24,967 nt of DNA, taken from a virus. Its lineage: Duplodnaviria > Caudoviricetes. Within the stretch, counting starts at the first letter, position 1. Each line of letters starts with the position of its first letter. Shown one piece after another: positions 8,385 through 21,198 of the stretch. Position numbers and translations under genes: made by a program. The stretch spans positions 1 through 24,967 of the IMG/VR virus record IMGVR_UViG_3300045457_000062. One strand, 5' to 3'. A model generated the notes under the pieces. The model was not told the DNA's origin, did no database searches, and saw nothing but the letters and a program-made list of their open reading frames with translations.

Positions 8385-8405
8385 GACACCTCCGATATTT
8401 CAAGC

Positions 8406-8434: not shown

Positions 8435-8441
8435 TAGGAGT

Positions 8442-8464
8442 GGGTGCGACAAAGTGTCGCACCC
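8442..8464. repeat. Perfect inverted repeat, operator-like or hairpin
   Basis: GGGTGCGACA-AAG-TGTCGCACCC, 7 bp upstream of the -35 box; no U-tract on either side. Confidence 0.8.
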
Positions 8465-8473
8465 CGTTGACAT

Positions 8474-9049: not shown

Positions 9050-9078
9050 AACTGCGCTCCCATCATAGTATCAGAACC
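9045..9078. repeat. 34-bp direct repeat, copy 1 (duplicate of the acyl-CoA dehydrogenase 3' end)
   Basis: atcaaaactgcgctcccatcatagtatcagaacc; 32/34 identical to 9374-9407. Confidence 0.92.
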
Positions 9079-9220
9079 CAACAGGGCGACGATTATGCAC
9101 ATCTTGTAATAAATAATGATACCAATCCGCACCCCAAATCAAACGCTGACGAAACTTACCGTAACGCCAATACTTGCGTTTTACTTCTTTACTACCGTTC
9201 CAATGGAATCGTTTCATCAT
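9071..9220 (-). CDS. Small basic, aromatic-rich protein, 49 aa, absent from the ORF track
   Basis: MMKRFHWNGSKEVKRKYWRYGKFRQRLIWGADWYHYLLQDVHNRRPVGF; GAGG RBS, ATGA overlap. Confidence 0.6.
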   Translation of the reverse strand: MMKRFHWNGSKEVKRKYWRYGKFRQRLIWGADWYHYLLQDVHNRRPVGF

Positions 9221-9378
9221 TTATTCCTCTTTTTTACAATTTCATCAACTTTTTCTTTTGATAGTAGTTCAAGTATTTTTGATTCTTTGTTTATTCTTAC
9301 CCATTGTCCATTTTCACAACAAACAATCGCTTCCATTTCATCATCTGTTACATAACAGGTATCGGTAAGTTTTATCAA
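9217..9378 (-). CDS. Hypothetical protein, 53 aa, absent from the ORF track
   Basis: TTG start overlaps the acyl-CoA dehydrogenase stop. MIKLTDTCYVTDDEMEAIVCCENGQWVRINKESKILELLSKEKVDEIVKKRNK. Confidence 0.65.
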   Translation of the reverse strand: MIKLTDTCYVTDDEMEAIVCCENGQWVRINKESKILELLSKEKVDEIVKKRNK

Positions 9379-9407
9379 AACTCCGCTCCCATCATAGTGT
9401 CAGAACC
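9374..9407. repeat. 34-bp direct repeat, copy 2
   Basis: atcaaaactccgctcccatcatagtgtcagaacc; encodes GSDTMMGAEF-stop on the minus strand. Confidence 0.92.
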
Positions 9408-11087
9408 TTCTCTAATACGCTGCAACAGAAAACTTGTCTCCGGTAGAATACGCTGCATGAAGTATGTGGCATTGTCATGGCGAGTCTTATCATTCGTCTT
9501 TAGACAAATCTTGATGTGTGCCATACCAAGCATAACAAGTCCCATCATCTTCATATAGTCGTAAGAAGCAGAACCAGCATTGTTTGGATTCTTGATAGCA
9601 TTATGCATCAACCATTCCGTTGCTTGCTTTAGTTCATTCAATGATCTTGTCATTGGTTGCACGATTGGATTGATATCCTTATCATATGCATTAGTCAAGA
9701 AACTTTCACTATCCTTGAAGAACTTGGTAATAGCACGACCCATGTTCTTAGGCAACTTACGACCAACAAGGTCAAGTGCCTGGATACCATTGGCACCTTC
9801 ATAGATCATAGCAATACGAGCATCACGGACAATCTGCTCCATGCCATTGTCACGAACATATCCATGACCACCCCATACCTGTTGCATCTTGATAGCATTC
9901 TCAACACCATAATCAGTGATAACGCCTTTGAGAACTGGAGTCATTAGACCAAGACGATCTTCTGCATCTTCCTTCTGTCTATTAATATCTGCTTCTACTG
10001 CCATGTCTGTTGTAGAACCATCAGCATTTACAACATCAACCAATGTTGCTGCTTCCAGTATTAATAACCTAGCAGCCTCGTTGATAGACCTAACATCAAG
10101 GAGCATACGGCGAACGTCAGGATGATCCACAATAGATACAGTACCAGAATCACGAGAAACCAGAGAATAACCTTGCTTACGCTCTTTAGCATATTGCACT
10201 CCATTTTGATAAGCCAACTCCGATTGTGATAGACCGTGAATAGCACAACCTAACCTTAATTCGTTCATCATAACAAACATACCTTGAAGACCCTTACAGC
10301 GTTCTCCAATAAGAAAACCTGTAGCACCATCAAAGTTCATAACACAAGTTGGTGAACCATGAATACCCATCTTTTCTTCAATAGCACCAGCAGATACATT
10401 GTTGTGTGATAGATTAACCAAAAACTTAGGCACAGCAAATAGACTGATACCCTTGACGCCTTCTGGATCACCTTCAACTCTTGCTAGAACAAGATGAAGA
10501 ATGTTCTTTGTTAGATCATGATCACCACCAGAGATAAAAATTTTCTGACCTGTGATTTCAAATGAACCATTGTGCTTGTCTACTGCTTTAGTCTTTAGCA
10601 AACCAAGATCAGTGCCGCAATGCGGTTCTGTTAAACACATTGTTCCTGTCCATTCACCACGAACCATTGGAGGAATGAAATGTTCTTTCTGTGGTGCTGA
10701 ACCAGACACTAGCAGGGTCTTGATAGCTCCACGAGTAATGCCAGGATATAGAGACCAAGCCATATTAGAAGAGGATACAAACTCGTTGAACGCCACCGCA
10801 AGTGTAAACGGCATACCCTGTCCGCCATAGGTTTCAGGAACTGATAAACCAAGCCATCCTCCTTCTGTGAACTGCTTCCAAGGTTCATGAAAACAAAATG
10901 GAACTTCAACATCGCCAGTTGAAAGTCTCCTTGCTCCGATTTCATCCCCTTTCTGATTAGTAGGTGCAATAACATCCTCACATAGTTTTGCTGCTTCTGT
11001 TAAGATTGCCTCAGTATTCTCATTATTGAAACCTAGAACATCACGGAGAAGAAATAGTGTTGATGCTAATGGTGCTGTATATTTCAT
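9375..11087 (-). CDS. Acyl-CoA dehydrogenase (long DmdC/FadE5-like type), host-derived
   Basis: GTMCLTEPHCGTDL, GQKIFISGGDHDL, EEKMGIHGSPTC, QVWGGHGY, IYEGANGIQALDL (catalytic Glu present). Confidence 0.95.
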   Translation of the reverse strand: MKYTAPLASTLFLLRDVLGFNNENTEAILTEAAKLCEDVIAPTNQKGDEIGARRLSTGDVEVPFCFHEPWKQFTEGGWLGLSVPETYGGQGMPFTLAVAFNEFVSSSNMAWSLYPGITRGAIKTLLVSGSAPQKEHFIPPMVRGEWTGTMCLTEPHCGTDLGLLKTKAVDKHNGSFEITGQKIFISGGDHDLTKNILHLVLARVEGDPEGVKGISLFAVPKFLVNLSHNNVSAGAIEEKMGIHGSPTCVMNFDGATGFLIGERCKGLQGMFVMMNELRLGCAIHGLSQSELAYQNGVQYAKERKQGYSLVSRDSGTVSIVDHPDVRRMLLDVRSINEAARLLILEAATLVDVVNADGSTTDMAVEADINRQKEDAEDRLGLMTPVLKGVITDYGVENAIKMQQVWGGHGYVRDNGMEQIVRDARIAMIYEGANGIQALDLVGRKLPKNMGRAITKFFKDSESFLTNAYDKDINPIVQPMTRSLNELKQATEWLMHNAIKNPNNAGSASYDYMKMMGLVMLGMAHIKICLKTNDKTRHDNATYFMQRILPETSFLLQRIREGSDTMMGAEF

Positions 11088-11302
11088 GATAGCCCCTGTA
11101 AGTCGTTCATCATTTCTTTATGAATTTCTTTTGCTTTTTCTATTTTAGCAGCAAGATACTCCTGCTCCTCTTTCTCTAAGTCTTCCATGTATTTCTTATA
11201 CCGTAGCGAAACATTGTGTTCAAACAACTTATCGTGTGAGTAATGAACCGCATGTGAAATGTCGGCATTGATGTAGTGTTTTAGTTTTTCCCATTTGTCC
11301 AT
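11084..11302 (-). CDS. Hypothetical protein
   Basis: 72 aa, helical and charged; coupled to neighbouring genes. Confidence 0.7.
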   Translation of the reverse strand: MDKWEKLKHYINADISHAVHYSHDKLFEHNVSLRYKKYMEDLEKEEQEYLAAKIEKAKEIHKEMMNDLQGLS

Positions 11303-11303
11303 G

Positions 11304-11621
11304 TTACACCATATACTTTACTGCATAACCTTTATTCAAAAGGTCTTCGTTAATGTTTTCACCATCGAGGATGATGGTGGCTAGATATCGACCATATTTT
11401 TCTTGTCGATCTTTTACTGTTTTGATTGTTACAGTCTTATTATATAATCGAGAGAATAGATAATCCCTTGTAGTCTTACCTGCTTCTTCTTTTAGTTCTG
11501 GTGCATTGAGTCCATACAATCTAAGTTTTATTTCAATTGAGATATGAAATCCAAGATCGACTAAAACATCTACGGTATCACCATCAACAATTCTCACAAC
11601 TTTTGCTATATATTCATACAT
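11304..11621 (-). CDS. Thermonuclease (SNase-like), no signal peptide
   Basis: VDGDT, RLYGLNAPE, KYGRYLA and INEDLL.KGYA motifs. Confidence 0.9.
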   Translation of the reverse strand: MYEYIAKVVRIVDGDTVDVLVDLGFHISIEIKLRLYGLNAPELKEEAGKTTRDYLFSRLYNKTVTIKTVKDRQEKYGRYLATIILDGENINEDLLNKGYAVKYMV

Positions 11622-12561
11622 CTTTCATACTTTCTATAATATCTTCCAGTGAATATTGTGGTTGGAAATCCAATAGTTCTTTTATCTTTGTAGTATCGGC
11701 CACAAGATAGGAAACATCACCAGGTCTCCTTTCCTCATATCTAACATTCATCTTGCCATTATGAATGATTTCGTTCACTTTGTCAACAACTTCTTTTACG
11801 GAATATCCTTTACCACTTCCTATATTTAGAAGGAGACTTTCATTCTTTTCTTCCATATATCTATACGCTAGTGTATGAGCCCGGCAAACATCCCTAACAT
11901 CAATAAAGTCTCTGACACATGTTCCGTCTTTTGTCCAATAATCTGTTCCGTAGATTACAGGATCTTCTCCTCTGACAAGCAAAGGAATCAAATGTGTTTC
12001 AGGATCATGTTCCTCGTATAGATTTGCTCTTCGATTTCTACCAGCAACATTAAAGTACCGAAGAATGGCACAGTTCATTTCTTTTTCATCTAGTAGAACA
12101 TTCTCAATCATGGCTTTACTCTTACCATATACAGAATAAGGATTGATCGGACATGTCTCAAATAGATGACCAAACGTTGAACTCTCTGACTTACCATATA
12201 CAGCAGCCGTAGATGAAAAGATAAAGTTCTTTATGCCATATTGCTTTGCTTCTTTCATCATACGAAGCGTGCCTGTCACATTGTTAAAGTAATACTTCCA
12301 TGGATCTGACTCACCTTCTTCAACAGATATCTCAGCAGCAAAATGAAAAACGGCATCAATGTGCCGTTTCTTTCCATTTGATAGAACGATAGGATCAAGA
12401 GCCAAGTCTACCTGAATGAACTCGTCATACAAATGCTTGAGATGCTTCTTTTGAACTCTATCGATACCTATAATGTGACAGTCATTATATAATGCACCAA
12501 GTTCATGGCACATATGACTGCCAATATATCCATTACAACCTGTTACAACAAATGTTCTCAT
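11614..12561 (-). CDS. galE: UDP-glucose 4-epimerase (GalE-like)
   Basis: TGCNGYIGSH, HFAA, FSSTAAVYG, YGKSK, LRYFNVAG, E.H.PETHLIP, DGTCVRDFIDV, RRPGD. Start re-assigned to ATG 12561 (ATGA overlap). Confidence 0.88.
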   Translation of the reverse strand: MRTFVVTGCNGYIGSHMCHELGALYNDCHIIGIDRVQKKHLKHLYDEFIQVDLALDPIVLSNGKKRHIDAVFHFAAEISVEEGESDPWKYYFNNVTGTLRMMKEAKQYGIKNFIFSSTAAVYGKSESSTFGHLFETCPINPYSVYGKSKAMIENVLLDEKEMNCAILRYFNVAGRNRRANLYEEHDPETHLIPLLVRGEDPVIYGTDYWTKDGTCVRDFIDVRDVCRAHTLAYRYMEEKNESLLLNIGSGKGYSVKEVVDKVNEIIHNGKMNVRYEERRPGDVSYLVADTTKIKELLDFQPQYSLEDIIESMKDV

Positions 12562-13118
12562 TTTATAGCATTCACCTTTAATACGGCCCAACGAGCAGGC
12601 GCAGGATTACGATCATCTTCTACTCTATAAACTCTGGTGAAACCACATTCATAGAGTAGTTTGGTCAAAGACTCTTCACAAAATCCATTGATATGTCCCA
12701 TACCAGGAATCTTGTGTTCGTCAGGATGACGCCAACCACCAAACAAATAGTCCATGGCATTCTCAAATGGATCAGGATGCATACGAAGCCAAGACACATT
12801 GGCCTTTTCATCCCAATCTTTATGAACGATGCGTTCCATAATCCATAGAACATCGGGACAAGTAATTTCTAGTGTAGCACCCGTCTTCATAATGCGCTTG
12901 ATTTCTTTTAGAACCTTAGGTGCATCAAACTTTGTTAGATGTTCAATCACATCACCAAAATAAACTTTGTCGGCAAAGTCTGCTTCAAAAGGATATGGCA
13001 CATGTCTAAGATCGTGAACGTGAGTTACACCTGCCCACTGGTGCAAATCCATCTTGTATGTTGCATCGGGCTTAGGATGTGGGCCAGAACCAATATCAAT
13101 AATCACTGGCTTATTCAT
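12558..13118 (-). CDS. Class I SAM-dependent methyltransferase (Methyltransf_11-like)
   Basis: DIGSG motif I, HDL, VIEHL, RIMKTGA.L.ITCPD; GGAGG RBS before ATG 13118. Confidence 0.82.
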   Translation of the reverse strand: MNKPVIIDIGSGPHPKPDATYKMDLHQWAGVTHVHDLRHVPYPFEADFADKVYFGDVIEHLTKFDAPKVLKEIKRIMKTGATLEITCPDVLWIMERIVHKDWDEKANVSWLRMHPDPFENAMDYLFGGWRHPDEHKIPGMGHINGFCEESLTKLLYECGFTRVYRVEDDRNPAPARWAVLKVNAIK

Positions 13119-14107
13119 TTCACCTCCACAACATGCTTGAGACACATACGAATTGAATCATCAACTTTCATCTTTGCTTCCCATCCAAGGTCTCTCTTGG
13201 CCTTCTCACAATCAGGAATACGAACACGAACATCGTTCTCATAATCACCTATTGATTCATATAGTAGGAAGTAATCTTCTAGAAGCATAAATTCTTTTGC
13301 TGCAATGTCTTTAATCTTCTCAGCAAGAACACGCATAGAGATTGGTTCTGGATTACCTAGATTGTAAGTCTCATTATCTGTCTTTTCAGAGAATGAATAG
13401 TCAGCAATGGCAGCAGCAACCTCATCAATCCATGTAAAGCACCGAATCTGATAACCATCACCAAGAATAGGCAGAGGCTTCTTCTTATCAACCACAATAT
13501 TCTTGATATAGTCAGCAAAGACATGTGAGATGCCAACTTCTTCTGACTCGCTTCTTTCATATGGTGTAATGATGTTGAATGGACGCCAGATGGTATACTT
13601 TAGACCATGCTGCTTTAGATATGCTTTTGACACTCTTTCACCAACAAACTTTGATAGACCATAGTCTGTATAAGGAGCAGGATTGCTGTCAACAATATCC
13701 TCTGGAACAGGATAAGCGATGTCTTGTGGACAGTTCTCATATACCATAGAAGATGAAATATAAACTACCTTTTTCACTTCATGAGCAACAGCAGCACGAA
13801 GGACGTTATCGTGTAGTGTAATATCCTTATACATCTCACCACAATACTTGTTGAATCCGCCTACACCATAGATGGTAGCAGCAGCCTGAATAATATAGTC
13901 AGGCTTCACTTGCTCTACCAACTTATCAACATTTAATCGGTCTGTAAGATCACACTTGATAAATGTATAATCTGTGCCGGCATGTCCTAGACGTTCACCA
14001 TATCGTGCTAGATTGTCTACACCATAGACAACATGTCCTTTGTTTAATAGTAGCGGAATGACCGCCTGCATTAGTGAACCTTCACTACCTGTAACCAAAA
14101 TCCTCAT
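13115..14107 (-). CDS. NAD-dependent nucleotide-sugar epimerase/dehydratase (extended SDR)
   Basis: ILVTGSEGSL, SSSMVY, YGLSK, RPFN, GDGYQIRCFTW. Confidence 0.88.
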   Translation of the reverse strand: MRILVTGSEGSLMQAVIPLLLNKGHVVYGVDNLARYGERLGHAGTDYTFIKCDLTDRLNVDKLVEQVKPDYIIQAAATIYGVGGFNKYCGEMYKDITLHDNVLRAAVAHEVKKVVYISSSMVYENCPQDIAYPVPEDIVDSNPAPYTDYGLSKFVGERVSKAYLKQHGLKYTIWRPFNIITPYERSESEEVGISHVFADYIKNIVVDKKKPLPILGDGYQIRCFTWIDEVAAAIADYSFSEKTDNETYNLGNPEPISMRVLAEKIKDIAAKEFMLLEDYFLLYESIGDYENDVRVRIPDCEKAKRDLGWEAKMKVDDSIRMCLKHVVEVK

Positions 14108-15369
14108 CGTATATCTCCAACTCTATAAATGCCTGAATTACTTAGTTTACTTTCTGGATACATCTTCCAGATATCTGCCATAATACAATCATCATTAAAA
14201 TCATTTAGTGGCCATTTCTTTTCTGTGCCTGTATGTGGTGTCATTACAATAACAGCATCAAAATGTTCTCTGTATGGAAAACCTTTGTCCTTTGGCCACG
14301 GAACATAGTCATCCCACATATACACCTCGGCTCCATTCTTTCTACATACCTTCTTCATCTTATATGATAGACTGTTTCTTGTATCGTCGCAGTCCTTCTT
14401 GAAGGTCGCACCAAGAATCAAAACACATCTTATCTTAGGATTCATCTCCTTGATACGATTGAAGATGTAGTCTGGCATACCTTCATTGATATGAAACGAA
14501 GTCTGAATAAGATCGGCAAACGGAATGTCTGATAGAAGAAATCGACCGTCTTTGAATAGACATGGGCCGCCGACATTCGGACCTGGTAAAGGAATAGCAT
14601 TTCTTTCATAACCAAGATTTGCTGCCTTGATGACATTATGCATATCTACACCTTGCTTTTCACCAATCATCCAAAACTCATTGGCAAGAGCAAAGGTAAC
14701 ATACCTATACATATTCGTCATGAGTTTGGCAATCTCTGCCTCTCTTGCTTTTAGACGAATGATTTCAGCCTTGACGAATGTTTGTAAAAAGTCTCTAGCC
14801 TTATAAAAAGACATTATAGAACAGGCACCAACTAGTGCTGGTAGAGTGGCAGTCTCTTCAATACCTTTTGTCTGTAGAACTCTTTCAGGAACAAACGTCA
14901 GATAAAAATCTACACCTTCTACCCATTTAGTCTTTTCTTCAATACGATCACGAAGAATTTCTGTTGTGCCCGGTGATACTGTTGATCTTAGCATCACCAA
15001 AGTATCTTTCTTCATATAAGGTATAAGAGTGTTATCAACAAAGTTGAACAAATCATCTAGTCGTGGATTGTTTTCTTCATCAACAGGTGTGCCAAGCATA
15101 ATGCATACAATATCACTTTCTTTGATGAAAGATGGATTGGTTGTGAAAAATATGTTTTCAGTCTTCAAATGCTTTGCTAAAAGTTCTGCGGCACCATGTT
15201 CAACATAAGGAACATTACCTTCTTCTAACTCAAGAATAAGTTCTTCATTCAAATCTACACCACAAACTTTATGTCCTGCATCCGCAACGACAAGAGAAAA
15301 CGGAAGGCCAACGTGACCTCCCGCTCCAATAACTGTAACTTTTTTAGGGGTTGAATCCGCAGTATTCAT
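14104..15369 (-). CDS. UDP-glucose/GDP-mannose dehydrogenase family (WecC-like)
   Basis: IGAGGHVGLP, GTP, RSTVSPGTT, PERV, AEIAKL..N, catalytic GGPCL.KD, GATFK...DDTRNS. Confidence 0.92.
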   Translation of the reverse strand: MNTADSTPKKVTVIGAGGHVGLPFSLVVADAGHKVCGVDLNEELILELEEGNVPYVEHGAAELLAKHLKTENIFFTTNPSFIKESDIVCIMLGTPVDEENNPRLDDLFNFVDNTLIPYMKKDTLVMLRSTVSPGTTEILRDRIEEKTKWVEGVDFYLTFVPERVLQTKGIEETATLPALVGACSIMSFYKARDFLQTFVKAEIIRLKAREAEIAKLMTNMYRYVTFALANEFWMIGEKQGVDMHNVIKAANLGYERNAIPLPGPNVGGPCLFKDGRFLLSDIPFADLIQTSFHINEGMPDYIFNRIKEMNPKIRCVLILGATFKKDCDDTRNSLSYKMKKVCRKNGAEVYMWDDYVPWPKDKGFPYREHFDAVIVMTPHTGTEKKWPLNDFNDDCIMADIWKMYPESKLSNSGIYRVGDIR

Positions 15370-16318
15370 AACTCTGTGTCTCCAATAATATATCTTCAAT
15401 GTCATTAGCCGTTTGTTCTACGGTATGATTCGCCATAACATAGTTGTAAGCACGGGTAATCTTTTCTTCGTCACGTTTATAGTTCCTGAGCAATTTCATT
15501 AGTTCCGCTTCATCATTATAAACATTGCCATGATAGCACAAATCATGAGCGGCTGCAATATCTCTTGCGAACCAAGGTGTTTTATTCATCATTGCTTCCA
15601 AAAGAACAAGACCATATCCTTCCTCATATGAGTTCATAATATAGGCATCAGCATTTGCCATTGCCTGCATTACCTCAGATTTAGGAAGTCCGTAAAATAC
15701 TTTTACCTTTTTAGATTGTGGTGGGGCTAAATGTTCTTCACCGTATCCGTAAAGATGTAACTCAGCATTAGGAATGTTTGCACTTTCAAATGCCTGTGCA
15801 AGAGGAGTCATTGCTTTATGTGGATAGAAACCACCGGCAGAAACATAAATTGTTTTATTAGTGGTCTTGTTTGCTGTTGCAATGGTTTCTTGTGGTATCA
15901 ATCCGTATCTAATACGTCTAGCCTTTTTCAACAATCTATACTTATGTATATGCTGCAAATCCATAGTTGTAGCATAAGAAACAAAACGATGATGATTCAT
16001 ACCAAAAACAGAAAGATAAGAGTCGCTAGGTTTAATAATCATATGAACAACCGGCGATCTTAGTCTTTGTGCATTTTCATGGACAACGTTTTGTGTGGAA
16101 CAATCTGCACCATGAACAAGTATCAAATCCCAATCTCTTGGCAGCCACTTATATTCTGTAGCAACCTTCACACCATTGATATCACCCTTTTGTATATCGG
16201 CGAGAACATGAACATCATGACCACGGCGAACCAATTCTTCTGCCATGTTGCGAACATTATATTCGCTACCGCCCGGAAAAGGATAGTAGCGATGAACAGC
16301 AAATAAAATTTTAGACAT
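15344..16318 (-). CDS. GT4 family glycosyltransferase (GT-B)
   Basis: YYPFPGGSE, L.RRGHDVHV, EEGYGLVLLEAM (E-x7-E). Confidence 0.9.
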   Translation of the reverse strand: MSKILFAVHRYYPFPGGSEYNVRNMAEELVRRGHDVHVLADIQKGDINGVKVATEYKWLPRDWDLILVHGADCSTQNVVHENAQRLRSPVVHMIIKPSDSYLSVFGMNHHRFVSYATTMDLQHIHKYRLLKKARRIRYGLIPQETIATANKTTNKTIYVSAGGFYPHKAMTPLAQAFESANIPNAELHLYGYGEEHLAPPQSKKVKVFYGLPKSEVMQAMANADAYIMNSYEEGYGLVLLEAMMNKTPWFARDIAAAHDLCYHGNVYNDEAELMKLLRNYKRDEEKITRAYNYVMANHTVEQTANDIEDILLETQSYEYCGFNP

Positions 16319-17334
16319 TACTCACCCTTTTCAAGCAGACACATATCTTCAACAAGTGCCTTAAAATCATACTTTGGAGTCCAATCTAATGTGAATCGTG
16401 CTTTGGTAGGATCACCTAGCAGTAATTGAACCTCTGCCGGACGATAAAAATATGGATTGATATTGATAACAATCTTATCAGTCTTTCTATCAATACCAAC
16501 TTCATTCTCTGCCTTACCACGCCATTCAATATCCATATCAAAATATTTGGCAGCAACCTCAATAAACTCTCTGACAGTATGTAGTTTGCCTGTAGCAACC
16601 ACATAATCATCAGGAGTATGGTGCTGCAACATCTTATGCATCACCTCAACATAATCTTTAGCATGGCCCCAATCTCTTTGGGCATCAATATTACCCATAG
16701 TAACAAATTCTTGCTTACCGAGTGCTACTCGTTTCAGACCATGAATGACCTTGCGAGTAACAAAGTTTGTACCACGACGAGGGCTTTCGTGATTGAATAG
16801 AATGCCATTACAGTTAAACATACCATATGACTCACGATAGTTTACCGACATCCAATGTGCGGCCAATTTAGCACAACCATATGGCGAACGGGGATAGAAT
16901 GGTGTTGTTTCTCTCTGTGGAGTTTCTTGAACGAGTCCAAACATTTCAGATGTTGATGCCTGATAAAACTTTGGATTGTGTCCAGCAACTTTTAGTTTGC
17001 GAAGGCCTTCTAGAATACCTGTGGTGCCAACAGCAATACATTGCATCGTGTATTCAGGAATATCAAACGAAACTCTAACATCTGATTGTGCTGCGATGTT
17101 ATATGTTTCGTCAGGCTTAATTTCTAGAATGTTATCTATAACAGCCGATGGTGATGTTAGATCACAATAGATAAGATTTAGATTTTTATGATTTCTTATG
17201 GATTCTATATTAGAATAATTGGGTGTGGATGATCTACGGACAAAACCGTAGACCTCATATCCTTTATCTAATAGAAGTTCAGCAAGATATGATCCGTCTT
17301 GCCCGGTGATTCCAGTAACAATCGCTTTCTTCAT
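16318..17334 (-). CDS. gmd: GDP-mannose 4,6-dehydratase
   Basis: TGITGQDGSYLAELLL, QASTSEMFG, PFYPRSPYGCAK, LFNHESPRRG, RDWGHAKDYV. GAGG RBS before ATG 17334. Confidence 0.96.
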   Translation of the reverse strand: MKKAIVTGITGQDGSYLAELLLDKGYEVYGFVRRSSTPNYSNIESIRNHKNLNLIYCDLTSPSAVIDNILEIKPDETYNIAAQSDVRVSFDIPEYTMQCIAVGTTGILEGLRKLKVAGHNPKFYQASTSEMFGLVQETPQRETTPFYPRSPYGCAKLAAHWMSVNYRESYGMFNCNGILFNHESPRRGTNFVTRKVIHGLKRVALGKQEFVTMGNIDAQRDWGHAKDYVEVMHKMLQHHTPDDYVVATGKLHTVREFIEVAAKYFDMDIEWRGKAENEVGIDRKTDKIVININPYFYRPAEVQLLLGDPTKARFTLDWTPKYDFKALVEDMCLLEKGE

Positions 17335-17335
17335 A

Positions 17336-18226
17336 TTATCCCTCATAAACAAACATATGCCACCAAAGATAAAACTGATGTAAATCAGTGTAACAGTTAG
17401 GTCTGTTATCAACAAATGGAGGCTGATATAACATATCTAGGTATTCGTTTTTACCTTCTGGTGAGTCAAGATGCTTGGTATAATCAATGACTCTATCAAA
17501 AGTGCCAAAGTCATGACTATTGATAAATGCTTTCTTGTTAAAGTCTCGGTGAACTGTATTGTTTGCGCCCCAATAGATAGGTACAGTATTAGCCTGAAAC
17601 GCATTCAAAATCTTTTCGGTCACATATCCAGGATAAGTTTGATTTTCAAATGCTATATTGAATTTATACTTATTCAAGAAATTAATCTTATGTTCTAGTT
17701 TATCTCTAGGCAAAATGAAACCTGTATTGTTCAGATGTGGCCCTGCCGAATCAACCTGCTTGTATGCACAAATCATAGGAAAGAAAGTGTTACGAACAGA
17801 AGATTTAGGATTGGACTGAACAAAAGAACAAAACTTTCTGTTCCAATTTTTCTCAGGATCACCCAAGTCACGATTACACAACTGTAAGTAATCATCCGTC
17901 CAATGCTCAAAATGAACAGCACTCCACATATCTAAAACATATAGTGGTAATCGGTAATGTCTGGGACTATTCTCTGGATCAAATGTTATGGCATGATTGT
18001 ATGTTAGATAGTCTGGACGAACATTTTCTCCTGTATAAAAGATTTTCTTAGCACGTCCATTGAACTTGTTATGTGCTTTACCAAAGTTACTATCACCAAA
18101 GATAACATACTTTGGGTTTTGATTATCAATAGTAACATCGTAGTATTCACTTAGAACCGTTGTAAAAAACAGTTCTGCGGTCGCAAAGGTATCAGAGAAA
18201 CCGAGGAGAAGAGGCGGCTTACTCAT
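17336..18226 (-). CDS. GT10 alpha-1,3/4-fucosyltransferase-like protein
   Basis: IFYTGEN.RPD, KFCSFVQSNP, and the alpha-1,3-FucT motif YKFNIAFEN..YPGYVTEKI..AF...TVPIYWG as in Helicobacter FutA. Confidence 0.9.
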   Translation of the reverse strand: MSKPPLLLGFSDTFATAELFFTTVLSEYYDVTIDNQNPKYVIFGDSNFGKAHNKFNGRAKKIFYTGENVRPDYLTYNHAITFDPENSPRHYRLPLYVLDMWSAVHFEHWTDDYLQLCNRDLGDPEKNWNRKFCSFVQSNPKSSVRNTFFPMICAYKQVDSAGPHLNNTGFILPRDKLEHKINFLNKYKFNIAFENQTYPGYVTEKILNAFQANTVPIYWGANNTVHRDFNKKAFINSHDFGTFDRVIDYTKHLDSPEGKNEYLDMLYQPPFVDNRPNCYTDLHQFYLWWHMFVYEG

Positions 18227-18843
18227 TACTTATACCAAAAAAATGAACTGTTAGTTGTTAGATTGATTGGTGCGGTAATCTTATTCTTTTCTCTGAAATC
18301 GTCTACGGCACGATGAACAGATTCCAATGCAGAGTAATCATGGCCGCAAAATATACCACCCTTCTTTAGTAAAGGATAGTATGCTTCACAATCTGCTAAT
18401 GTTGCTTCATATGAATGATCGCCATCAACAAAGATAAAGTCAAATGGTGTATCATCTTGTGAATTTAGAATTGTCTTGATCTTAGAGGCTGCATCTAATG
18501 ATGTTTCACGGATCATTTGAACACGTTCACCGAACGACTTTAGGTTCTCTTCGGCAATCATTAGAAACTTATCTATGACCTCTTGATTAAGTTCACCAGC
18601 CCAGTCTTCATATGCTTTATATGGATCGATTGTGTAAAGTTTTAGAACATTATCACAACGACTAAGAATATCATATGTGCTTTCCGCACGACAAGTTCCA
18701 ATTTCAAGTCCCACAAGATTGTCACCTTGTCTCTTTATGTAAGGAACAAGACCTTTAGTAGAAGTCCATTCAATAGGCCATTTACTAGCACTCTTAAGTT
18801 CGTCTACCGTCATAAAATCTGTTTCAGTCAATTCAATTGCCAT
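18226..18843 (-). CDS. Class I SAM-dependent O-methyltransferase (Methyltransf_24-like)
   Basis: GLEIGT, IDPY, FDFIFVDGDHSYE, LLKKGGIFCGHDY. Confidence 0.88.
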   Translation of the reverse strand: MAIELTETDFMTVDELKSASKWPIEWTSTKGLVPYIKRQGDNLVGLEIGTCRAESTYDILSRCDNVLKLYTIDPYKAYEDWAGELNQEVIDKFLMIAEENLKSFGERVQMIRETSLDAASKIKTILNSQDDTPFDFIFVDGDHSYEATLADCEAYYPLLKKGGIFCGHDYSALESVHRAVDDFREKNKITAPINLTTNSSFFWYK

Positions 18844-18844
18844 A

Positions 18845-19753
18845 TTAGTCTCCATACACATTCTGTATCATTTTATTCCAATCAGGTACACGATCCCATT
18901 GATGCAAAACTGTTACCTTCTCACCATTTACATGAACACTATTATCTTTAATAGTATAGTTCAATTCTTCTAAAAAGTCAATCTTCATATTAGGATTGAT
19001 TACATATGCTTCGCCTATACCACCAGAGCCCGCCTCGATTGCAGGCATTGACGTGCCGGCATGTAGTACCCAACCATTAGAAGGCATCGTTAATAATGTG
19101 GAGAAATGATATGTTTCAAAATCAAGCATGATATTCATCGCAGCCTGATCCGGGCCGCCGCCACCTTCTATCCAAGGATTTAAGCCACGACATATTAGCC
19201 AAAGATTTAGACAGAAATCTTTTATAGTGTCTAACTGTCCGGCAATCACACCAGCACAAAAGATAGGATCATCTTTCTTACGATCAAGAAAGTATTCACC
19301 AAATGATTTAGCAAGGTTGTTACTTCCCCACGGTTCGTTACCATATGTCATGTTCTCTGATCCAACCAGAAGATTATAACCATTTAGAAAATATTCATCT
19401 AACCATTCTGTAGGATTACTTTGAAACACAACATCCCTAACGTCAGTAATAATAACACGATCTACCATTTCAGGATCGTTTAACATATTGAGAAAATGAT
19501 GTATATGCAGAAAACGGTCAACCATAATGTTGCTATTACCTTCATACACAAACCCATTTTTGTCATCACTAGGACCGACACCAATCAACATAAACTGTTT
19601 TTGTGTGAGAAGTTCAACTGTTTCTTTATTCATATTATATACGATAAGAGCCTTGTATCCATCAAAGCCCGACTTTTCAATAGAGTTGGCCCAATACTTA
19701 ATCTTATCCCAATCGTAATTATCTACGACGCCTATAATCACGTCTTTAGCCAT
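18845..19753 (-). CDS. Putative GT-A fold glycosyltransferase
   Basis: TDVRDVVFQSNP (DxxD), CAGVIAG, DQAAMN and HQWDR motifs, within the glycan cluster. Confidence 0.72.
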   Translation of the reverse strand: MAKDVIIGVVDNYDWDKIKYWANSIEKSGFDGYKALIVYNMNKETVELLTQKQFMLIGVGPSDDKNGFVYEGNSNIMVDRFLHIHHFLNMLNDPEMVDRVIITDVRDVVFQSNPTEWLDEYFLNGYNLLVGSENMTYGNEPWGSNNLAKSFGEYFLDRKKDDPIFCAGVIAGQLDTIKDFCLNLWLICRGLNPWIEGGGGPDQAAMNIMLDFETYHFSTLLTMPSNGWVLHAGTSMPAIEAGSGGIGEAYVINPNMKIDFLEELNYTIKDNSVHVNGEKVTVLHQWDRVPDWNKMIQNVYGD

Positions 19754-20478
19754 GGAAACCTACCTCCGTAATATGCCTCTTGTGTGGCATTACCTTCAAC
19801 AAAAAAATCTTTCGTAACTGAATTAGGATTACCGTCTAGACGATAGCAAAGTGTGTGCTTACCATTTGTATCATACTTGGCATGTTCTTTTACAGCATAA
19901 AAGAATGCTCTATCACCACCCCAACCTGTGTGCCAGAAATGACAAGTCTTTTGAATGAACTCTCTTTTGAAGCAGAAAGAAGATGTATCAATCAGATAAT
20001 GCTTGCCATGGGGTGAATGACGAGACATAAAGATTTCCCACTTCCCAAGACTTTCACAGTTATCATCACAAAGGTACTTTTTATCAGGTGAGAAAATCTT
20101 GCGAAGTGAGTAGGAGAAATCCAAATTCTTCTTTTCAATTGTTTCAATTAGTGAAGCAACATGGTCAGGTTCATACCAGTTGTCTTCGTCAAGAAATAGA
20201 ATATAGTGTGAATTGATTAGATGTGGATAAGCGGCATAGATACGATGCCCATAGAACTCACCACCGGTCTTACCTGTGTTCTCTGGTGTTTGCACAATCT
20301 CACAACCATCAGATCCACACATATTGACAACTCGATCCCAATACTCAGGACCATCGACCACAAGCAAATGCTTACAACTATAAGTCTGCTTCTTAACAGA
20401 CATGATAGCATCAAGGAGTTTTTCAGAACCGATTGTAGGAGTAATAACTGTTACGGGTTTTTCAATCACTAGATTCAT
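19738..20478 (-). CDS. GT2 family glycosyltransferase
   Basis: VITPT, SVKKQTY, VVDG, FLDEDNWYEPDH (DxD), IDTSSF. Confidence 0.9.
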   Translation of the reverse strand: MNLVIEKPVTVITPTIGSEKLLDAIMSVKKQTYSCKHLLVVDGPEYWDRVVNMCGSDGCEIVQTPENTGKTGGEFYGHRIYAAYPHLINSHYILFLDEDNWYEPDHVASLIETIEKKNLDFSYSLRKIFSPDKKYLCDDNCESLGKWEIFMSRHSPHGKHYLIDTSSFCFKREFIQKTCHFWHTGWGGDRAFFYAVKEHAKYDTNGKHTLCYRLDGNPNSVTKDFFVEGNATQEAYYGGRFPWLKT

Positions 20479-20491: not shown

Positions 20492-20533
20492 AAAGAGAAG
20501 GCCGAGGCGTACCTTGCGGCAGAGGCCCCGACC
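20492..20533 (-). terminator. GC-rich GCAA-tetraloop hairpin with a pyrimidine tail, between hsp20 and the glycan cluster
   Basis: GGTCGGGGC-CTC-TGCC-GCAA-GGTA-C-GCCTCGGCC followed by TTCTCTTT. Confidence 0.6.
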
Positions 20534-20542: not shown

Positions 20543-21106
20543 TTATTTAGTATCCTTGGGAGTCATCACATCTGCGACTTTCTGTAGGCTTTCAGCCCAG
20601 ACCTTGCCGCTCTCGGTGAGAAGTTGCTTTGTCGTCTCCTGGATGCCGAACGGATCCATGATGTCGATCTTCTTTGGCTTCTTCTCCTCTGGAATAAAGC
20701 GTTCAAGAAAGATTTTGAGCATACCGTTAGCAAGTTCCGCATTCTTGACCTCCACTGAATCTGCGATGGTAAACTTTCTAGTAAAAGCACGATTAGCAAT
20801 ACCCTTGTGAAGGTAGTCGCCTTCTTCGGTTTCAGTATTGCCTGTAATCGTTAACACACCATCTTTCAGTTCAATGTCAAGATTATGCTTGCCGAATCCT
20901 GCTACAGCCATTTCAATGGTGTAATGTTCATCGTCAATCTTTTTGACATTGTATGGTGGATATGCTGGAATCTTAGGTAGGTATTCTTGTGCTTCTGCGA
21001 TCCGTTGCAGCACTTGATCAAAGCCGATAGCGCCCTTTGATATGTCATTAGCGAATGTGAAAGGATCAAACCAGATACGGTCTGTTGAGCGATTGTTATT
21101 TCCCAT
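20543..21106 (-). CDS. hsp20: Small heat-shock protein (Hsp20/IbpA-like)
   Basis: IGFD, YPPYNV, IEMAVAGF, YLHKGIANRAFTRKF, A.L.NGML.I.L, PEEKKPKKIDI (IxI), then a tail of about 37 aa. Confidence 0.95.
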   Translation of the reverse strand: MGNNNRSTDRIWFDPFTFANDISKGAIGFDQVLQRIAEAQEYLPKIPAYPPYNVKKIDDEHYTIEMAVAGFGKHNLDIELKDGVLTITGNTETEEGDYLHKGIANRAFTRKFTIADSVEVKNAELANGMLKIFLERFIPEEKKPKKIDIMDPFGIQETTKQLLTESGKVWAESLQKVADVMTPKDTK

Positions 21107-21168: not shown

Positions 21169-21198
21169 ATTATATAGTAAACTTTGTATGTTTGTCAA
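21169..21198 (-). promoter_or_regulatory. Sigma70-type promoter of hsp20
   Basis: TTGACA (21198-21193), 18-bp spacer, TATAAT (21174-21169). The predicted start lies just before hairpin 1. Confidence 0.78.

What the first reader, a model, noticed from the sequence alone, without database searches (positions are those of the whole stretch)
11614..20478. Ten-gene phage glycan pathway (sugar synthesis, four GTs including GT10, two methyltransferases) inside the replication module
Seen: ten ORFs with overlapping or abutting stops and starts: GT2, GT-A, methyltransferase, GT10, Gmd, GT4, nucleotide-sugar dehydrogenase, SDR, methyltransferase, GalE. None has an evident signal peptide or TM segment, and no flippase, Wzy or GtrA/B is in the window. 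Known: Gmd starts GDP-fucose/GDP-rhamnose synthesis; GT10 enzymes are alpha-1,3/4-fucosyltransferases; T-even phages add only one or two sugars to hydroxylated cytosines. Inference: the phage assembles a multi-sugar, probably O-methylated deoxyhexose/uronate glycan on a cytoplasmic acceptor. Candidates are virion proteins, hypermodified DNA, or host lipid-linked LPS/EPS precursors. This is the best candidate here for an undescribed system.
Basis: partly seen in the sequence, partly recalled or inferred. Interest (0 to 1): 0.85.

Follow-up and report, generated by a model that had tools for sequence, protein, structure and literature searches.

The report
Swappable glycan island in freshwater phage
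A freshwater T4-like phage carries a tightly packed ten-gene operon for making, attaching and methylating sugars; it is one version of a swappable glycan island shared by its relatives, it likely coats the phage particle or the host surface, and comparable clusters are already known in marine phages.

Summary
Ten abutting minus-strand ORFs (20478 to 11614) encode, in order, GT2, a family-less GT-A, a TylF-type O-methyltransferase, GT10, Gmd, GT4, an NDP-sugar 6-dehydrogenase, an SDR, a small methyltransferase and GalE. All are soluble.

The window is a fragment of an uncultured freshwater T4-like phage. Its relatives carry an AmoC/PmoC gene. The island always sits just after hsp20, between regA and gp43, and the only promoter-like site found for it is a consensus sigma-70 site upstream of hsp20.

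Eight further contigs keep the same gene order. Other relatives keep the ends (GT2, GT-A and GT10; dehydrogenase and SDR) but swap the middle: a different dehydratase plus a C-methyltransferase replaces Gmd and GT4. dN/dS is 0.07-0.22, as in replication genes.

Near-complete relatives have no ThyA/dCMP-hydroxymethylase or C5-methylase family gene, and no large polytopic membrane protein except AmoC. A 5hmC DNA acceptor is therefore unlikely, and no export machinery is phage-encoded.

The acceptor stays unproven. I favour virion proteins (0.4), as in chloroviruses and mimiviruses, over host LPS/EPS intermediates (0.35).

Multi-gene glycan clusters are already described in cyanomyophages and pelagimyophages, so this is a new member of a known kind, not an undescribed system.

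The parts
21169..21198 (-). Perfect sigma-70-type promoter (TTGACA-18-TATAAT) upstream of hsp20. It is the only promoter-like site found that could drive the island.
   Evidence: There are 3 perfect matches in the window, all on the minus strand, against 0.04 expected. The function is inferred.
20543..21106 (-). Hsp20 small heat-shock protein gene. It is the conserved left flank of the island in all relatives.
   Evidence: Pfam HSP20 67.9 bits. It lies adjacent to o1 in G006, G007, G008, G010 and L101-L107.
20492..20533 (-). GC-rich hairpin (20500-20533) followed by UUCUCUUU, lying between hsp20 and o1. It looks like a terminator or attenuator, so the island would be read by read-through.
   Evidence: -25.8 kcal/mol, z -3.0, 1 of 200 shuffles as stable. 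The role is inferred.
19738..20478 (-). o1: soluble GT2 glycosyltransferase (246 aa, DED motif in LFLDEDN). It is the most conserved GT of the island.
   Evidence: Pfam PF00535 37.7/23.3. Identity to relatives is 70-83%. No match in 50,697 phage records.
18845..19753 (-). o2: retaining-type GT-A glycosyltransferase of a family with no Pfam model (TDVRD motif).
   Evidence: No Pfam family. AF2 pLDDT 93.8. Z 17.5 to the LH3 GT domain, 17.0 to mimivirus R699 and 14.2 to PBCV-1 A64R. 2820 cluster representatives at E<=1e-3. Fused to GT2 and/or a methyltransferase in 3 of 12 long homologues.
18226..18861 (-). o3: TylF/Methyltransf_24-type SAM-dependent sugar O-methyltransferase. The likely start is ATG 18843.
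   Evidence: Pfam 63.5/26.3 and TylF 37.6/23. Start candidates.
17336..18226 (-). o4: GT10 alpha-1,3/4-fucosyltransferase-like enzyme, catalytic domains only, with no C-terminal membrane tail.
   Evidence: Pfam GT10 68.8 and FucT_N 61.7. H. pylori FucT 2nzw at E 2e-41, with the FYTGEN, RN and YVTEK stretches aligned.
16318..17334 (-). o5: GDP-mannose 4,6-dehydratase (338 aa from ATG 17334). The 365-aa TTG form adds a spurious hydrophobic N-terminus.
   Evidence: TIGR01472 472.8/415. Start. Best bacterial identity is about 54%. 75-88% in L101-L108.
15344..16318 (-). o6: GT4 (GT-B) glycosyltransferase with an E-x7-E motif.
   Evidence: Pfam Glycos_transf_1 54.5/26.4. Sequence.
14104..15369 (-). 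o7: NDP-sugar 6-dehydrogenase, nearest to the UDP-ManNAc/HexNAc dehydrogenases (GGPCLFKD catalytic-Cys motif).
   Evidence: TIGR03026 270.8/189.8; specific equivalogs are below cut-off. PDB 4r16 at 3.7e-50 and Cap5O at 1.8e-48.
13115..14107 (-). o8: extended SDR (SSS...YGLSK triad), an epimerase/reductase-like enzyme of unresolved substrate. It follows o7 in every island seen, with a homing endonuclease between them in one.
   Evidence: Pfam Epimerase 144.9. No NCBIfam equivalog is reached. PDB hits are mixed. Adjacency.
12558..13118 (-). o9: small class-I SAM methyltransferase (DIGSGPHP motif).
   Evidence: Pfam Methyltransf_23 27.4/27 and Methyltransf_11 22.4/21.2. Orthologues at 68-72% in G008, L101 and L102.
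11614..12561 (-). o10: UDP-glucose (or UDP-HexNAc) 4-epimerase GalE.
   Evidence: TIGR01179 296.2/262.3.
9375..11621 (-). Three genes packed directly behind the island: an SNase-like nuclease (11304-11621), a 72-aa ORF (11084-11302) and an acyl-CoA dehydrogenase (9375-11087). They probably share the transcript but are not glycan genes.
   Evidence: The ACAD lies elsewhere in G008, so the linkage is not obligatory.

Best explanation
This is a ten-gene, translationally coupled operon of an uncultured freshwater T4-like phage that encodes nucleotide-sugar enzymes, four soluble glycosyltransferases and two methyltransferases, and it is predicted to build a methylated deoxyhexose/uronate oligosaccharide in the cytoplasm, most likely on the phage's own virion proteins.

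Shown:
- The gene families.
- The lack of membrane segments.
- The fixed position after hsp20, between regA and gp43.
- Collinear conservation in relatives, with conserved ends and an exchangeable middle.
- Purifying selection.
- The absence of phage-encoded flippase, polymerase or initiating-transferase-like proteins, and of 5hmC-pathway genes, in near-complete relatives.

Inferred pathway:
- Gmd turns GDP-mannose into GDP-4-keto-6-deoxymannose. Its reduction to a 6-deoxyhexose would need a host enzyme or a second activity, because no fucose synthase is present.
- o7 oxidises a UDP-hexose or UDP-HexNAc to the uronate. The invariably adjacent SDR o8 would epimerise or reduce it.
- GalE supplies the 4-epimer.
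- GT2 and the GT-A o2 (always first, always adjacent, and fused to each other and to a methyltransferase in distant homologues) would start the chain. GT10 and GT4 would extend it. The TylF-type and small methyltransferases would cap sugars with methyl groups.
- Transcription would come by read-through from the early sigma-70 promoter of hsp20.

Cassette exchange of the middle genes would give the phage clade different glycan types.
For: Enzyme set and solubility.

The island is genuine phage DNA at a fixed locus. The same phage is seen in 3 other contigs at 99.7-100%. The island follows hsp20 in 3 of 4 near-complete relatives (G006, G007, G008) and in fragment G010. The identical order o1 to o8/o9/o10 occurs in 8 contigs, L101-L108.

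The core (GT2, o2-like, GT10, dehydrogenase, o8) is in all 9 of the 9 islands I read through from o1 to o8 or further.

dN/dS is 0.071-0.218 in 18 defined comparisons of glycan genes, against 0.041-0.192 in 10 comparisons of flanking genes.

The system is self-contained and cytoplasmic. No ORF of 300 aa or more has 4 or more hydrophobic segments in the window, G001 or G006-G008, and the AmoC-family genes were the most hydrophobic mid-sized ORFs. Ten TM-rich ORFs (eight small ones of G006-G008 and two of G001, one of 385 aa) gave no GtrA or transporter family.

The genes have a long history in phages rather than recent capture. Gmd is at most about 54% identical to any of 185,579 species' genomes. 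The look-alike clusters of o2 are 94-100% viral. o1 and o2 have no match in 50,697 phage records.

o2's best structural matches are mostly protein-glycosylating GT-A enzymes, two of them viral: LH3 Z 17.5, mimivirus R699 17.0, GlyE 15.5, Skp1 GalT 14.8, glycogenin 14.4 and PBCV-1 A64R 14.2.

The GT-A + GT2 + methyltransferase fusion P0263 mirrors the GT-GT-methyltransferase layout of PBCV-1 A064R. That enzyme, with a second methyltransferase A061L, builds a di-O-methyl-rhamnose cap on the capsid glycan. Chlorovirus GTs are soluble and expressed early, chloroviruses encode GMD and UGD, and mimivirus glycogene clusters are clade-specific (passages of PMC9614988).

Phage virion glycosylation is established for mycobacteriophages (passage of PMC12363180).
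Against: There is no direct evidence for any acceptor.

The island lies among early replication genes, not beside structural genes as in mycobacteriophages. I know of no T4-like virion reported as glycosylated (recalled, not searched exhaustively).

Bacterial GT10, GT4 and GT2 enzymes mostly act on LPS, EPS or teichoic acids. LPS enzymes LgtC (Z 14.9) and WbbM (15.2) are within about 2.5 Z of the top hit for o2, and a shared fold shows no function.

Published authors favour host O-chain modification for the analogous clusters.

The dS values are largely saturated, so dN/dS is rough.

The hydropathy count is crude: AmoC, which by my recollection has six helices, scored only 3-4 segments.
Confidence: 0.4

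Rival explanations
1. Host envelope remodelling. The soluble phage enzymes would act on the host's undecaprenyl-linked O-antigen, capsule or EPS intermediates, or on lipid A-core, at the cytoplasmic face. The host's own transporter and ligase would export the altered glycan, changing the infected cell surface (superinfection exclusion, or less loss of progeny on debris).
For: This is the published reading of the analogous clusters in cyanomyophages and pelagimyophages (passages).

Bacterial GT10 (H. pylori FucT, E 2e-41), GT4 and GT2 relatives work on LPS, teichuronic acid and EPS (weak NCBIfam hits).

Early sigma-70 transcription fits a function needed soon after infection.

The host is diderm: an Rz/Rz1 spanin pair is present.

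Conserved ends with a variable middle is the architecture of bacterial O-antigen loci.
Against: There is no phage-encoded initiating transferase, flippase, polymerase, ligase or ABC transporter in the window or in three near-complete relatives. A de novo four-GT glycan would therefore have to pass the host's substrate-selective export steps.

Pre-existing surface glycan is not removed within one lytic cycle (inference).

The genes are old phage residents rather than recent host copies.
Confidence: 0.35
2. DNA hypermodification. The glycosyltransferases would attach a glycan to a hydroxylated base in phage DNA to block restriction, as in T-even phages or the methylase/TET-dependent phage systems.
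For: The island sits in the replication module, close to a dUTPase/dCTP-deaminase-like gene (22254-22871) and to a gp1-like dNMP kinase in the extended contig. Diverse glycans on phage 5hmC are in print (Pyle et al. 2024, seen only as a reference entry).
Against: The ThyA/dCMP-hydroxymethylase family PF00303 is found in 0 of 4 relatives that are 96% or more complete, while gp23 rings in the same 4. The C5-methylase PF00145 is found in 0 of 3 near-complete relatives. Tet_JBP is found in 0 of 5, but that search had no positive control.

None of the ten ORFs matched a T4 alpha- or beta-glucosyltransferase family.

Uronate, deoxyhexose and O-methylation enzymes are not part of any DNA glycosylation pathway I know (recalled).
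Confidence: 0.05
3. Cytoplasmic glycosylation of a non-virion protein or other molecule. The target could be a host receptor protein such as flagellin, pilin or an S-layer subunit, a glycolipid, or a free oligosaccharide. The purpose would be to mask receptors or alter host physiology.
For: The all-soluble set of GTs, methyltransferases and deoxysugar enzymes resembles bacterial flagellin and serine-rich-repeat-protein glycosylation islands (recalled). GlyE is among o2's structural matches at Z 15.5. The GT4 gives weak hits to glycolipid synthases.
Against: No candidate target was identified. It has the same lack of direct evidence as the others. The o2 family is overwhelmingly viral, which fits a phage-specific acceptor better.
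Confidence: 0.12

Closest known systems
'LPS / cell-wall synthesis and modification' gene clusters of T4-like cyanomyophages (P-SSM2, S-SCSM1, S-SCSM2R, S-SKS1) and of pelagimyophages
   Same: They share a T4-like myophage backbone and clusters of nucleotide-sugar epimerases and dehydratases (including Gmd), UDP-sugar dehydrogenase, GT2, GT4, GT10 and other GTs. They lie in variable genome regions and the acceptor is unproven. GT10 homologues occur in 11 deposited phage records, 9 of them Synechococcus phages.
   Different: The phage lineage differs: gp43 is at most 49.8% identical to any deposited phage, psbA is absent and relatives carry AmoC/PmoC.

The island is in the regA-gp43 interval, behind an early promoter, not in the tail-fibre 'host recognition cluster' of pelagimyophages.

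The leading pair o1 and o2 has no homologue in deposited phages.

There is one syntenic locus with allelic cassettes rather than scattered genes.
Chlorovirus (PBCV-1) and mimivirus virus-encoded virion glycosylation machinery
   Same: The virus encodes GMD and a UDP-sugar dehydrogenase, soluble cytoplasmic GT-A enzymes, two methyltransferases that methylate a terminal 6-deoxyhexose, early expression, and clade-specific glycogene clusters (PMC9614988 passages).

o2 matches A64R domain 1 (Z 14.2) and mimivirus R699 (Z 17.0) structurally. A GT + GT + methyltransferase fusion exists among o2 homologues.
   Different: Those are eukaryotic giant viruses. There is no detectable sequence similarity. 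The glycan on the capsid is demonstrated there and untested here. GT10, GT4 and GalE are not the enzymes used there.
Mycobacteriophage virion glycosylation (Che8, Corndog, Myrna)
   Same: Phage-encoded glycosyltransferases glycosylate the phage's own capsid and tail-tube proteins in the cytoplasm (passages).
   Different: Those systems are described as using only a few GT genes (the passages name single essential GTs; that they sit by the structural genes is recalled), with no nucleotide-sugar synthesis module. The hosts are actinobacteria. The primary paper was not available.
Bacterial O-antigen / capsule loci
   Same: Conserved flanks with a variable centre. They have nucleotide-sugar genes plus GTs plus terminal methyltransferases. 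Mosaic identity along the locus suggests recombination.
   Different: There is no initiating phosphoglycosyltransferase, Wzx, Wzy, Wzm/Wzt or WaaL. The locus is carried by a lytic-type phage.
T-even DNA glucosylation (alpha-gt / beta-gt on 5hmC)
   Same: Phage GTs encoded among early replication genes.
   Different: There is no hydroxymethylase, no alpha-gt or beta-gt family hit, and far more enzymes than a one- or two-sugar DNA modification needs.

Membership tests
GT10 alpha-1,3/4-fucosyltransferase | GT10 catalytic (C-terminal) domain and FucT N-terminal domain above Pfam cut-offs | tested here: met
   68.8/23.9 and 61.7/27.2 bits. H. pylori FucT 2nzw at E 2.2e-41 over both domains.
GT10 alpha-1,3/4-fucosyltransferase | Conserved alpha-1,3-FucT motif and catalytic/GDP-fucose-binding residues | tested here: met
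   FYTGEN, (V/I)RN and FENxxxxGYVTEK are aligned identically with 2nzw. The roles of these residues are recalled from the literature, not tested.
GT10 alpha-1,3/4-fucosyltransferase | Uses GDP-L-fucose as donor | not testable with these tools
   No fucose synthase is in the island. Relatives keep GT10 without Gmd.
GDP-mannose 4,6-dehydratase (TIGR01472 equivalog) | Score above the equivalog cut-off | tested here: met
   472.8 against 415.
GDP-L-fucose synthase (Fcl/GMER) | Score above the equivalog cut-off for any island SDR | tested here: not met
   o8 87.5 and o10 38.3 against 500. o8 has no Cys after the catalytic Ser (SSSMVY; the motif is recalled).
UDP-glucose 4-epimerase GalE (TIGR01179) | Score above the equivalog cut-off | tested here: met
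   o10 296.2 against 262.3; o8 only 89.2.
Nucleotide-sugar 6-dehydrogenase (TIGR03026) | Subfamily cut-off and three-domain architecture | tested here: met
   270.8 against 189.8. The N, central and C domains are present. Substrate-specific equivalogs are not reached (UDP-ManNAc DH 217.6/750, TuaD 112.6/700).
GT-A fold glycosyltransferase (o2) | GT-A Rossmann-like fold with a DxD-type motif | tested here: met
   pLDDT 93.8. 130 chains at Z>=8; the top ones are retaining GT-A enzymes. T103, D104, R106 and D107 (the TDVRD stretch) are invariant in 21 sequences. Membership of a particular CAZy family is inconclusive: weak GT_PLOD hits in 8 of 21 members, best E 3e-4.
LPS-type glycan gene clusters of T4-like aquatic myophages | T4-like backbone carrying clustered nucleotide-sugar enzymes and several GTs in a variable region | tested here: met
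   gp43, gp44, gp62, regA and gp45. gp23 in relatives. Island variability.
LPS-type glycan gene clusters of T4-like aquatic myophages | Product modifies the host O-chain | not testable with these tools
   Also unproven in the published cases.
Wzx/Wzy- or Gtr-type phage seroconversion | Phage-encoded GtrA/GtrB/Gtr(type), Wzy or O-acetylase membrane proteins | tested here: not met
   No polytopic ORF of suitable size in the window, G001 or G006-G008. No family hit for the ten TM-rich ORFs scanned.
T-even 5hmC DNA glucosylation | dCMP hydroxymethylase plus alpha-gt/beta-gt | tested here: not met
   PF00303 in 0 of 4 near-complete relatives, control 10 of 14. No alpha-gt or beta-gt family among the ten ORFs. 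The window phage's own genome is only about 20% available.
Methylase/TET-dependent 5hmC glycosylation | C5-cytosine methylase plus TET/JBP dioxygenase | tested here: not met
   PF00145 in 0 of 5 records, 3 of them near-complete, control 9 of 14. PF12851 in 0 of 5, but with no positive control, so that half is inconclusive.
Virus-encoded virion glycosylation (chlorovirus / mimivirus / mycobacteriophage type) | Soluble virus-encoded GTs with own sugar-nucleotide and methylation enzymes | tested here: met
Virus-encoded virion glycosylation (chlorovirus / mimivirus / mycobacteriophage type) | Glycan covalently attached to capsid, fibre or tail proteins | not testable with these tools
   Needs virions. 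The host is uncultured.

The most novel reading that the evidence does not exclude
The island is a phage 'serotype locus'. A T4-like phage clade builds its own methylated deoxyhexose/uronate glycan on virion proteins in the bacterial cytoplasm, using a virus-specific GT-A/GT2 initiating pair. It diversifies that coat by swapping the central cassette (Gmd + GT4 versus another dehydratase + C-methyltransferase + 2OG oxygenase). This would be a bacteriophage counterpart of chlorovirus and mimivirus glycan machineries.
Probability: 0.3. Interest if true: 0.8.

Novelty: new member of a known kind. Interest (0 to 1): 0.45.

Why it matters
Large aquatic T4-like phages repeatedly carry multi-gene glycan clusters whose acceptor has never been shown.

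This clade offers a clean comparative case. It has one fixed locus, a conserved five-gene core, at least two exchangeable cassettes and purifying selection. It also lacks any phage-encoded export or 5hmC genes, which narrows the acceptor to cytoplasmic proteins or host lipid-linked intermediates.

The phages are abundant in lakes, and their relatives carry AmoC/PmoC. Their hosts are therefore probably methane or ammonia oxidisers. A glycan that changes virion or host surface properties could bear on phage-host dynamics in those guilds.

It does not by itself reveal a new kind of system.

Tried and rejected
- Megablast of the island against 50,697 phage records gave no match. tblastn of o2 and o1 gave no match either.
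- The window's 'own genome' is only the window itself, so the rest of this phage could not be searched. I used the 33.6-kb sister contig and near-complete relatives instead.
- phmmer of o2, o1 and o3 against PDB sequences gave nothing. The o2 profile against PDB gave only insignificant hits; LH3 had E 0.59.
- A search for longer (fused) o2 homologues by words found none. The exhaustive profile search did find them.
- The Gmd donor or host could not be traced. The best bacterial matches are about 50-54% identical and taxonomically scattered.
- T4 late-promoter octamer TATAAATA: 0 matches against 1.8 expected, which is uninformative.
- Collagen-like Gly-X-Y runs as possible targets of an LH3-like GT are present only in G007 and weakly in G006 and G008. 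They are not conserved, so I dropped the idea.
- G002-G005 (the other GT10/Gmd viral contigs) did not ring for gp43 or gp23. They are a different lineage and were not pursued.
- Sequencing runs: no RNA holder is listed, so nothing can be said on expression.
- Earlier-findings look-ups returned nothing.
- Foldseek searches ('pdb', 'viral') never ran because the machine was busy. Only the VIA-align wide search ran.
- The second structure job, complex prediction and read laying were not used.
- The Freeman et al. 2023 primary paper is not held.
- Supplements of the pmoC- and amoC-phage papers were not examined. They may list these glycan genes.

Full report
OBSERVATION

The finding's coordinates coincide with ten consecutive minus-strand ORFs. 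In transcription order they are:
- o1, 19738-20478: GT2
- o2, 18845-19753: no Pfam family
- o3, 18226-18861: Methyltransf_24/TylF
- o4, 17336-18226: GT10 with the FucT N-terminal domain
- o5, 16318-17415: Gmd
- o6, 15344-16318: GT4
- o7, 14104-15405: nucleotide-sugar dehydrogenase
- o8, 13115-14107: extended SDR
- o9, 12558-13145: small class-I methyltransferase
- o10, 11614-12591: GalE

Nine of the ten pass Pfam's curated cut-offs for those families. Gmd, GalE and the dehydrogenase also pass NCBIfam cut-offs (472.8/415, 296.2/262.3, 270.8/189.8). o8 reaches no equivalog: GalE 89.2/262.3, fucose synthase 87.5/500, UDP-xylose synthase type 86.8/294.

Start-codon inspection moves four starts to ATGs preceded by Shine-Dalgarno-like sequences: o5 to 17334, o7 to 15369, o9 to 13118, o10 to 12561. 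This removes the only hydrophobic N-terminus, an artefact of the TTG start of o5. After that, neighbours overlap by 1-26 nt or are 1 nt apart. The packing runs on through an SNase-like gene, a 72-aa ORF and an acyl-CoA dehydrogenase down to 9375.

No ORF of the ten has a membrane-like segment.

THE UNASSIGNED ORF o2

- o2 has 269 homologues by word search, all unnamed.
- It has 2820 cluster representatives at E<=1e-3 by exhaustive profile search.
- Protein-language-model look-alikes are clusters that are 94-100% viral, some with minority PF03407, GT_PLOD or GT8 labels.
- 8 of 21 aligned members give weak GT_PLOD hits, best E 3e-4.
- An AlphaFold2 model from a 21-sequence alignment is confident (pLDDT 93.8, pTM 0.92).

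Against 48,161 PDB representatives the model is a retaining-type GT-A. The matches are:
- the human LH3 collagen glucosyltransferase domain: Z 17.5, rmsd 3.2, 210 aligned
- mimivirus R699: Z 17.0
- LH3/ColGalT1: 16.7
- blood-group GTB: 16.0
- BoGT6a: 15.9
- GlyE: 15.5
- WbbM: 15.2
- LgtC: 14.9
- the Skp1 alpha-galactosyltransferase: 14.8
- UGGT: 14.6
- glycogenin: 14.4
- PBCV-1 A64R: 14.2

T103, D104, R106 and D107, the TDVRD stretch, are invariant in all 21 sequences.

Of 12 longer homologues scanned, three are fusions: o2-domain + GT2 + methyltransferase (964 aa), o2 + GT2, and o2 + methyltransferase. This links o2 functionally to the neighbouring GT2 (o1) and methyltransferase (o3).

OTHER ENZYMES

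- o4 aligns with H. pylori alpha-1,3-fucosyltransferase over both domains (E 2e-41). The FYTGEN, RN and YVTEK stretches are conserved. It ends where the catalytic domain ends, so it lacks the C-terminal tail of the Helicobacter enzyme.
- o7 is closest to UDP-ManNAc/HexNAc dehydrogenases: 4r16 at 3.7e-50 and Cap5O at 1.8e-48.
- o8 has a Ser-Tyr-Lys triad (SSSMVY ... YGLSK). It lacks the Glu of uronate decarboxylases and the Cys of GDP-fucose synthase or GDP-mannose 3,5-epimerase (motifs recalled). Its PDB matches are mixed.

The island has no recognisable fucose synthase.

WHAT GENOME THIS IS

The flanks are T4-type replication genes: gp44, gp62, regA, a dUTPase/dCD-like gene and hsp20 on one side, gp43 on the other. 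An Rz/Rz1 spanin pair points to a diderm host.

The record is only the window. A 33.6-kb sister contig (99.7% identical over 17.6 kb) adds gp45, a gp1-like dNMP kinase, gp46, a MoxR-type AAA protein and an FtsH-like protease.

gp43 is at most 49.8% identical to any deposited phage, and the best hits are Synechococcus myophages. Near-identical DNA is held by freshwater and lake metagenome runs from several studies, 2016-2025.

Relatives found through the acyl-CoA dehydrogenase include four contigs that are 96-100% complete (G006-G009). Three of them (gp43 78-82% identical) carry gp23 and lack psbA. G006 holds an AmoC/PmoC gene between the dehydrogenase and gp43 (E 2.7e-109). G007 and G008 have 256-257-aa ORFs with the same hydropathy pattern, at a like place.

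The clade therefore belongs with the published freshwater pmoC-phages or amoC-phages (PMC7674155; bioRxiv 10.64898/2026.06.18.733297). The main texts of both papers have 0 occurrences of 'glycosyl' and 'lipopolysaccharide'. I did not see their supplements.

CONSERVATION OF THE BLOCK

In G006, G007, G008 and the fragment G010 the island starts right after hsp20, as in the window.

Eight further contigs (L101-L108) keep the same order: o1-o2-o3-o4-o5-o6-o7-o8, then o9 and/or o10. Small extras appear in some of them: a DegT aminotransferase, a weak 2OG oxygenase, a CmcI-type methyltransferase.

Two island types appear.
- Type A holds MT24, GT10, (Gmd), GT4, the dehydrogenase, o8 and o9. It occurs in the window, in L101-L108, and in G008, which lacks Gmd and GalE.
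- Type B holds GT10, unknown ORFs, sometimes a PF13640 2OG oxygenase, another 4,6-dehydratase-like SDR, MT24 (absent in G006), a Methyltransf_13/14 C-methyltransferase, the dehydrogenase and o8. It occurs in G006, G007, G010 and L018.

GT2, o2-like, GT10, the dehydrogenase and o8 are in all 9 of the 9 islands I read through from o1 to o8 or further.

Identity to the window is very uneven within a single contig. In L101, for example: RegA 97, o1 80, o2 59, o4 60, Gmd 85, o6 61, o7 65, o8 91. L018 has o7 at 93% but o8 at 61%. This indicates recombination between islands.

Of the 15 ACAD loci with upstream sequence, 8 have island genes next to the ACAD and 7 do not. One of those 7 is G008, where the island is at the hsp20 site instead. 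G009 is distant (gp43 33%) and lacks the island.

dN/dS (Nei-Gojobori) is 0.071-0.218 for 18 glycan-gene comparisons; one is undefined because of saturation. For 10 comparisons of flanking genes it is 0.041-0.192. Many dS values exceed 1, so these are rough, but selection is clearly not relaxed.

EXPRESSION SIGNALS

The window has three perfect TTGACA-N16-18-TATAAT sites, all on the coding strand, against 0.04 expected. One lies at 21198-21169, just upstream of hsp20.

Between hsp20 and o1 there is only a stable hairpin with a U-rich tail and no room for a promoter. The island is therefore predicted to be read through from an early, host-RNA-polymerase promoter.

ACCEPTOR

DNA is unlikely. The ThyA/dCMP-hydroxymethylase family is absent from 4 of 4 near-complete relatives (the control rang in 10 of 14 genomes, and gp23 rang in the same four records). 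C5-cytosine methylase is absent from 3 of 3. Tet_JBP is absent too, but that search had no positive control.

No phage-encoded export or initiation machinery exists. No ORF of 300 aa or more has 4 or more hydrophobic segments in the window, G001 or G006-G008. Apart from the AmoC-family genes, nothing polytopic was found. Ten TM-rich ORFs, two of them from G001, hit no transporter family.

That leaves two readings: host lipid-linked intermediates exported by host machinery, or cytoplasmic proteins.

For the host reading:
- It is the published interpretation of analogous clusters.
- Bacterial GT10, GT4 and GT2 enzymes work on LPS and EPS.
- Expression is early.
- The locus has an O-antigen-like architecture.

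For the protein, chiefly virion, reading:
- The enzyme set is wholly soluble and self-contained.
- The genes are old and phage-specific (Gmd at most about 54% to any bacterium; o2 clusters viral).
- o2 resembles protein-glycosylating GT-A enzymes, two of them viral.
- There is a close parallel with chloroviruses and mimiviruses: virus-encoded GMD and UGD, soluble early-expressed GTs, a GT-GT-methyltransferase protein plus a second methyltransferase, and clade-specific glycogene clusters (PMC9614988 passages).

Early expression therefore does not argue against virion glycosylation.

I put virion proteins at 0.40, host envelope at 0.35, other protein or lipid targets at 0.12 and DNA at 0.05.

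COMPARISON AND NOVELTY

Clusters of this kind are in print:
- S-SKS1 carries an annotated fucosyltransferase among epimerases.
- S-SCSM1 has 13 such genes, including Gmd, a fucose synthase and three fucosyltransferases.
- S-SCSM2R has 22, including a GT10.
- Pelagimyophages have 162 LPS-related proteins, many in a hypervariable island.

What is particular here:
- the lineage (relatives of pmoC/amoC-phages)
- the locus in the regA-gp43 interval behind an early promoter
- the leading GT2 and GT-A pair, which has no homologue in deposited phages
- the clear conserved-core, swappable-cassette structure

This makes it a new member of a known kind with an unresolved acceptor. It is not an undescribed system.

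Noticed in passing
L043:432-1202 (G006:140432-141202); ORFs of 256-257 aa with the same hydropathy pattern in G007 (L048:1931-2704) and G008 (L061:6330-7100): Near-complete relatives carry an AmoC/PmoC-family gene (PF04896, E 2.7e-109) between the acyl-CoA dehydrogenase and gp43. This places the clade with the published freshwater pmoC- or amoC-phages. The window has no such ORF in the corresponding interval (3800-9375).
   Followed up: partly
L009:11196-12014 (sister contig, upstream of the dNMP kinase and gp45): A fifth glycosyltransferase-like gene lies outside the island: 272 aa, a DSD motif, and a weak Anp1 hit of 26.8/28.8 bits. It is 83-89% conserved in G006-G008 and 48% in the island-less G009. 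It is present in 64 deposited phage records (Synechococcus 43, Sinorhizobium 7, Caulobacter Cr30, Pelagibacter, Stenotrophomonas DLP6), mostly annotated as hypothetical.
   Followed up: partly
window 9375-11087 (-): A 570-aa acyl-CoA dehydrogenase with all four ACAD domains, packed onto the end of the glycan operon. It is 73-93% conserved in 18 of the 19 related viral loci (99% in the 19th, the same phage). The pmoC-phage paper mentions a similar gene resembling one from Methylocystis.
   Followed up: partly
window 5497-5526, 8406-8434, 21169-21198 (all -): Three perfect sigma-70 consensus promoters (TTGACA-N16-18-TATAAT) on the coding strand, against 0.04 expected by chance. They are probably early promoters.
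   Followed up: partly
window 5411-5794 and 5791-6072 (+): An Rz/Rz1-like spanin pair, encoded on the opposite strand inside the early region. It indicates a diderm host.
   Followed up: no
L097:10646-11269 (G007 island): A NUMOD3-type homing endonuclease is inserted between the dehydrogenase (o7) and the SDR (o8). This is the only interruption of that otherwise invariant gene pair.
   Followed up: no
L097:4213-5013 and L099:6061-6855 (-); L101:9324-9944; L102:11180-11800: 2OG-Fe(II) oxygenase genes lie inside some island versions: PF13640, the prolyl-hydroxylase-like type, in G007 and G010, and weak 2OG-FeII_Oxy_5 hits in L101 and L102. They could hydroxylate a protein or a sugar. They are absent from the window's island.
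   Followed up: no
L004 (G002, 145-kb viral contig), 179-18407: An unrelated large phage lineage carries an even bigger glycan cluster of 18 kb or more. It holds GT10 (31% identical), Gmd (44%), MT24, several GT4/GT2 genes, a GT47-like gene, a sulfotransferase, an aminotransferase fragment and an FkbM methyltransferase.
   Followed up: partly
window 119-1081 (-); L009:5465-7084: Two N6/N4-type DNA methyltransferase genes are present, one in the window and a longer, weaker one in the sister contig. No C5 methylase was found in relatives.
   Followed up: no
L009:3-851 and 594-597-aa ORFs in G006-G008: A phage-encoded FtsH-like AAA/M41 protease, conserved in the clade.
   Followed up: no
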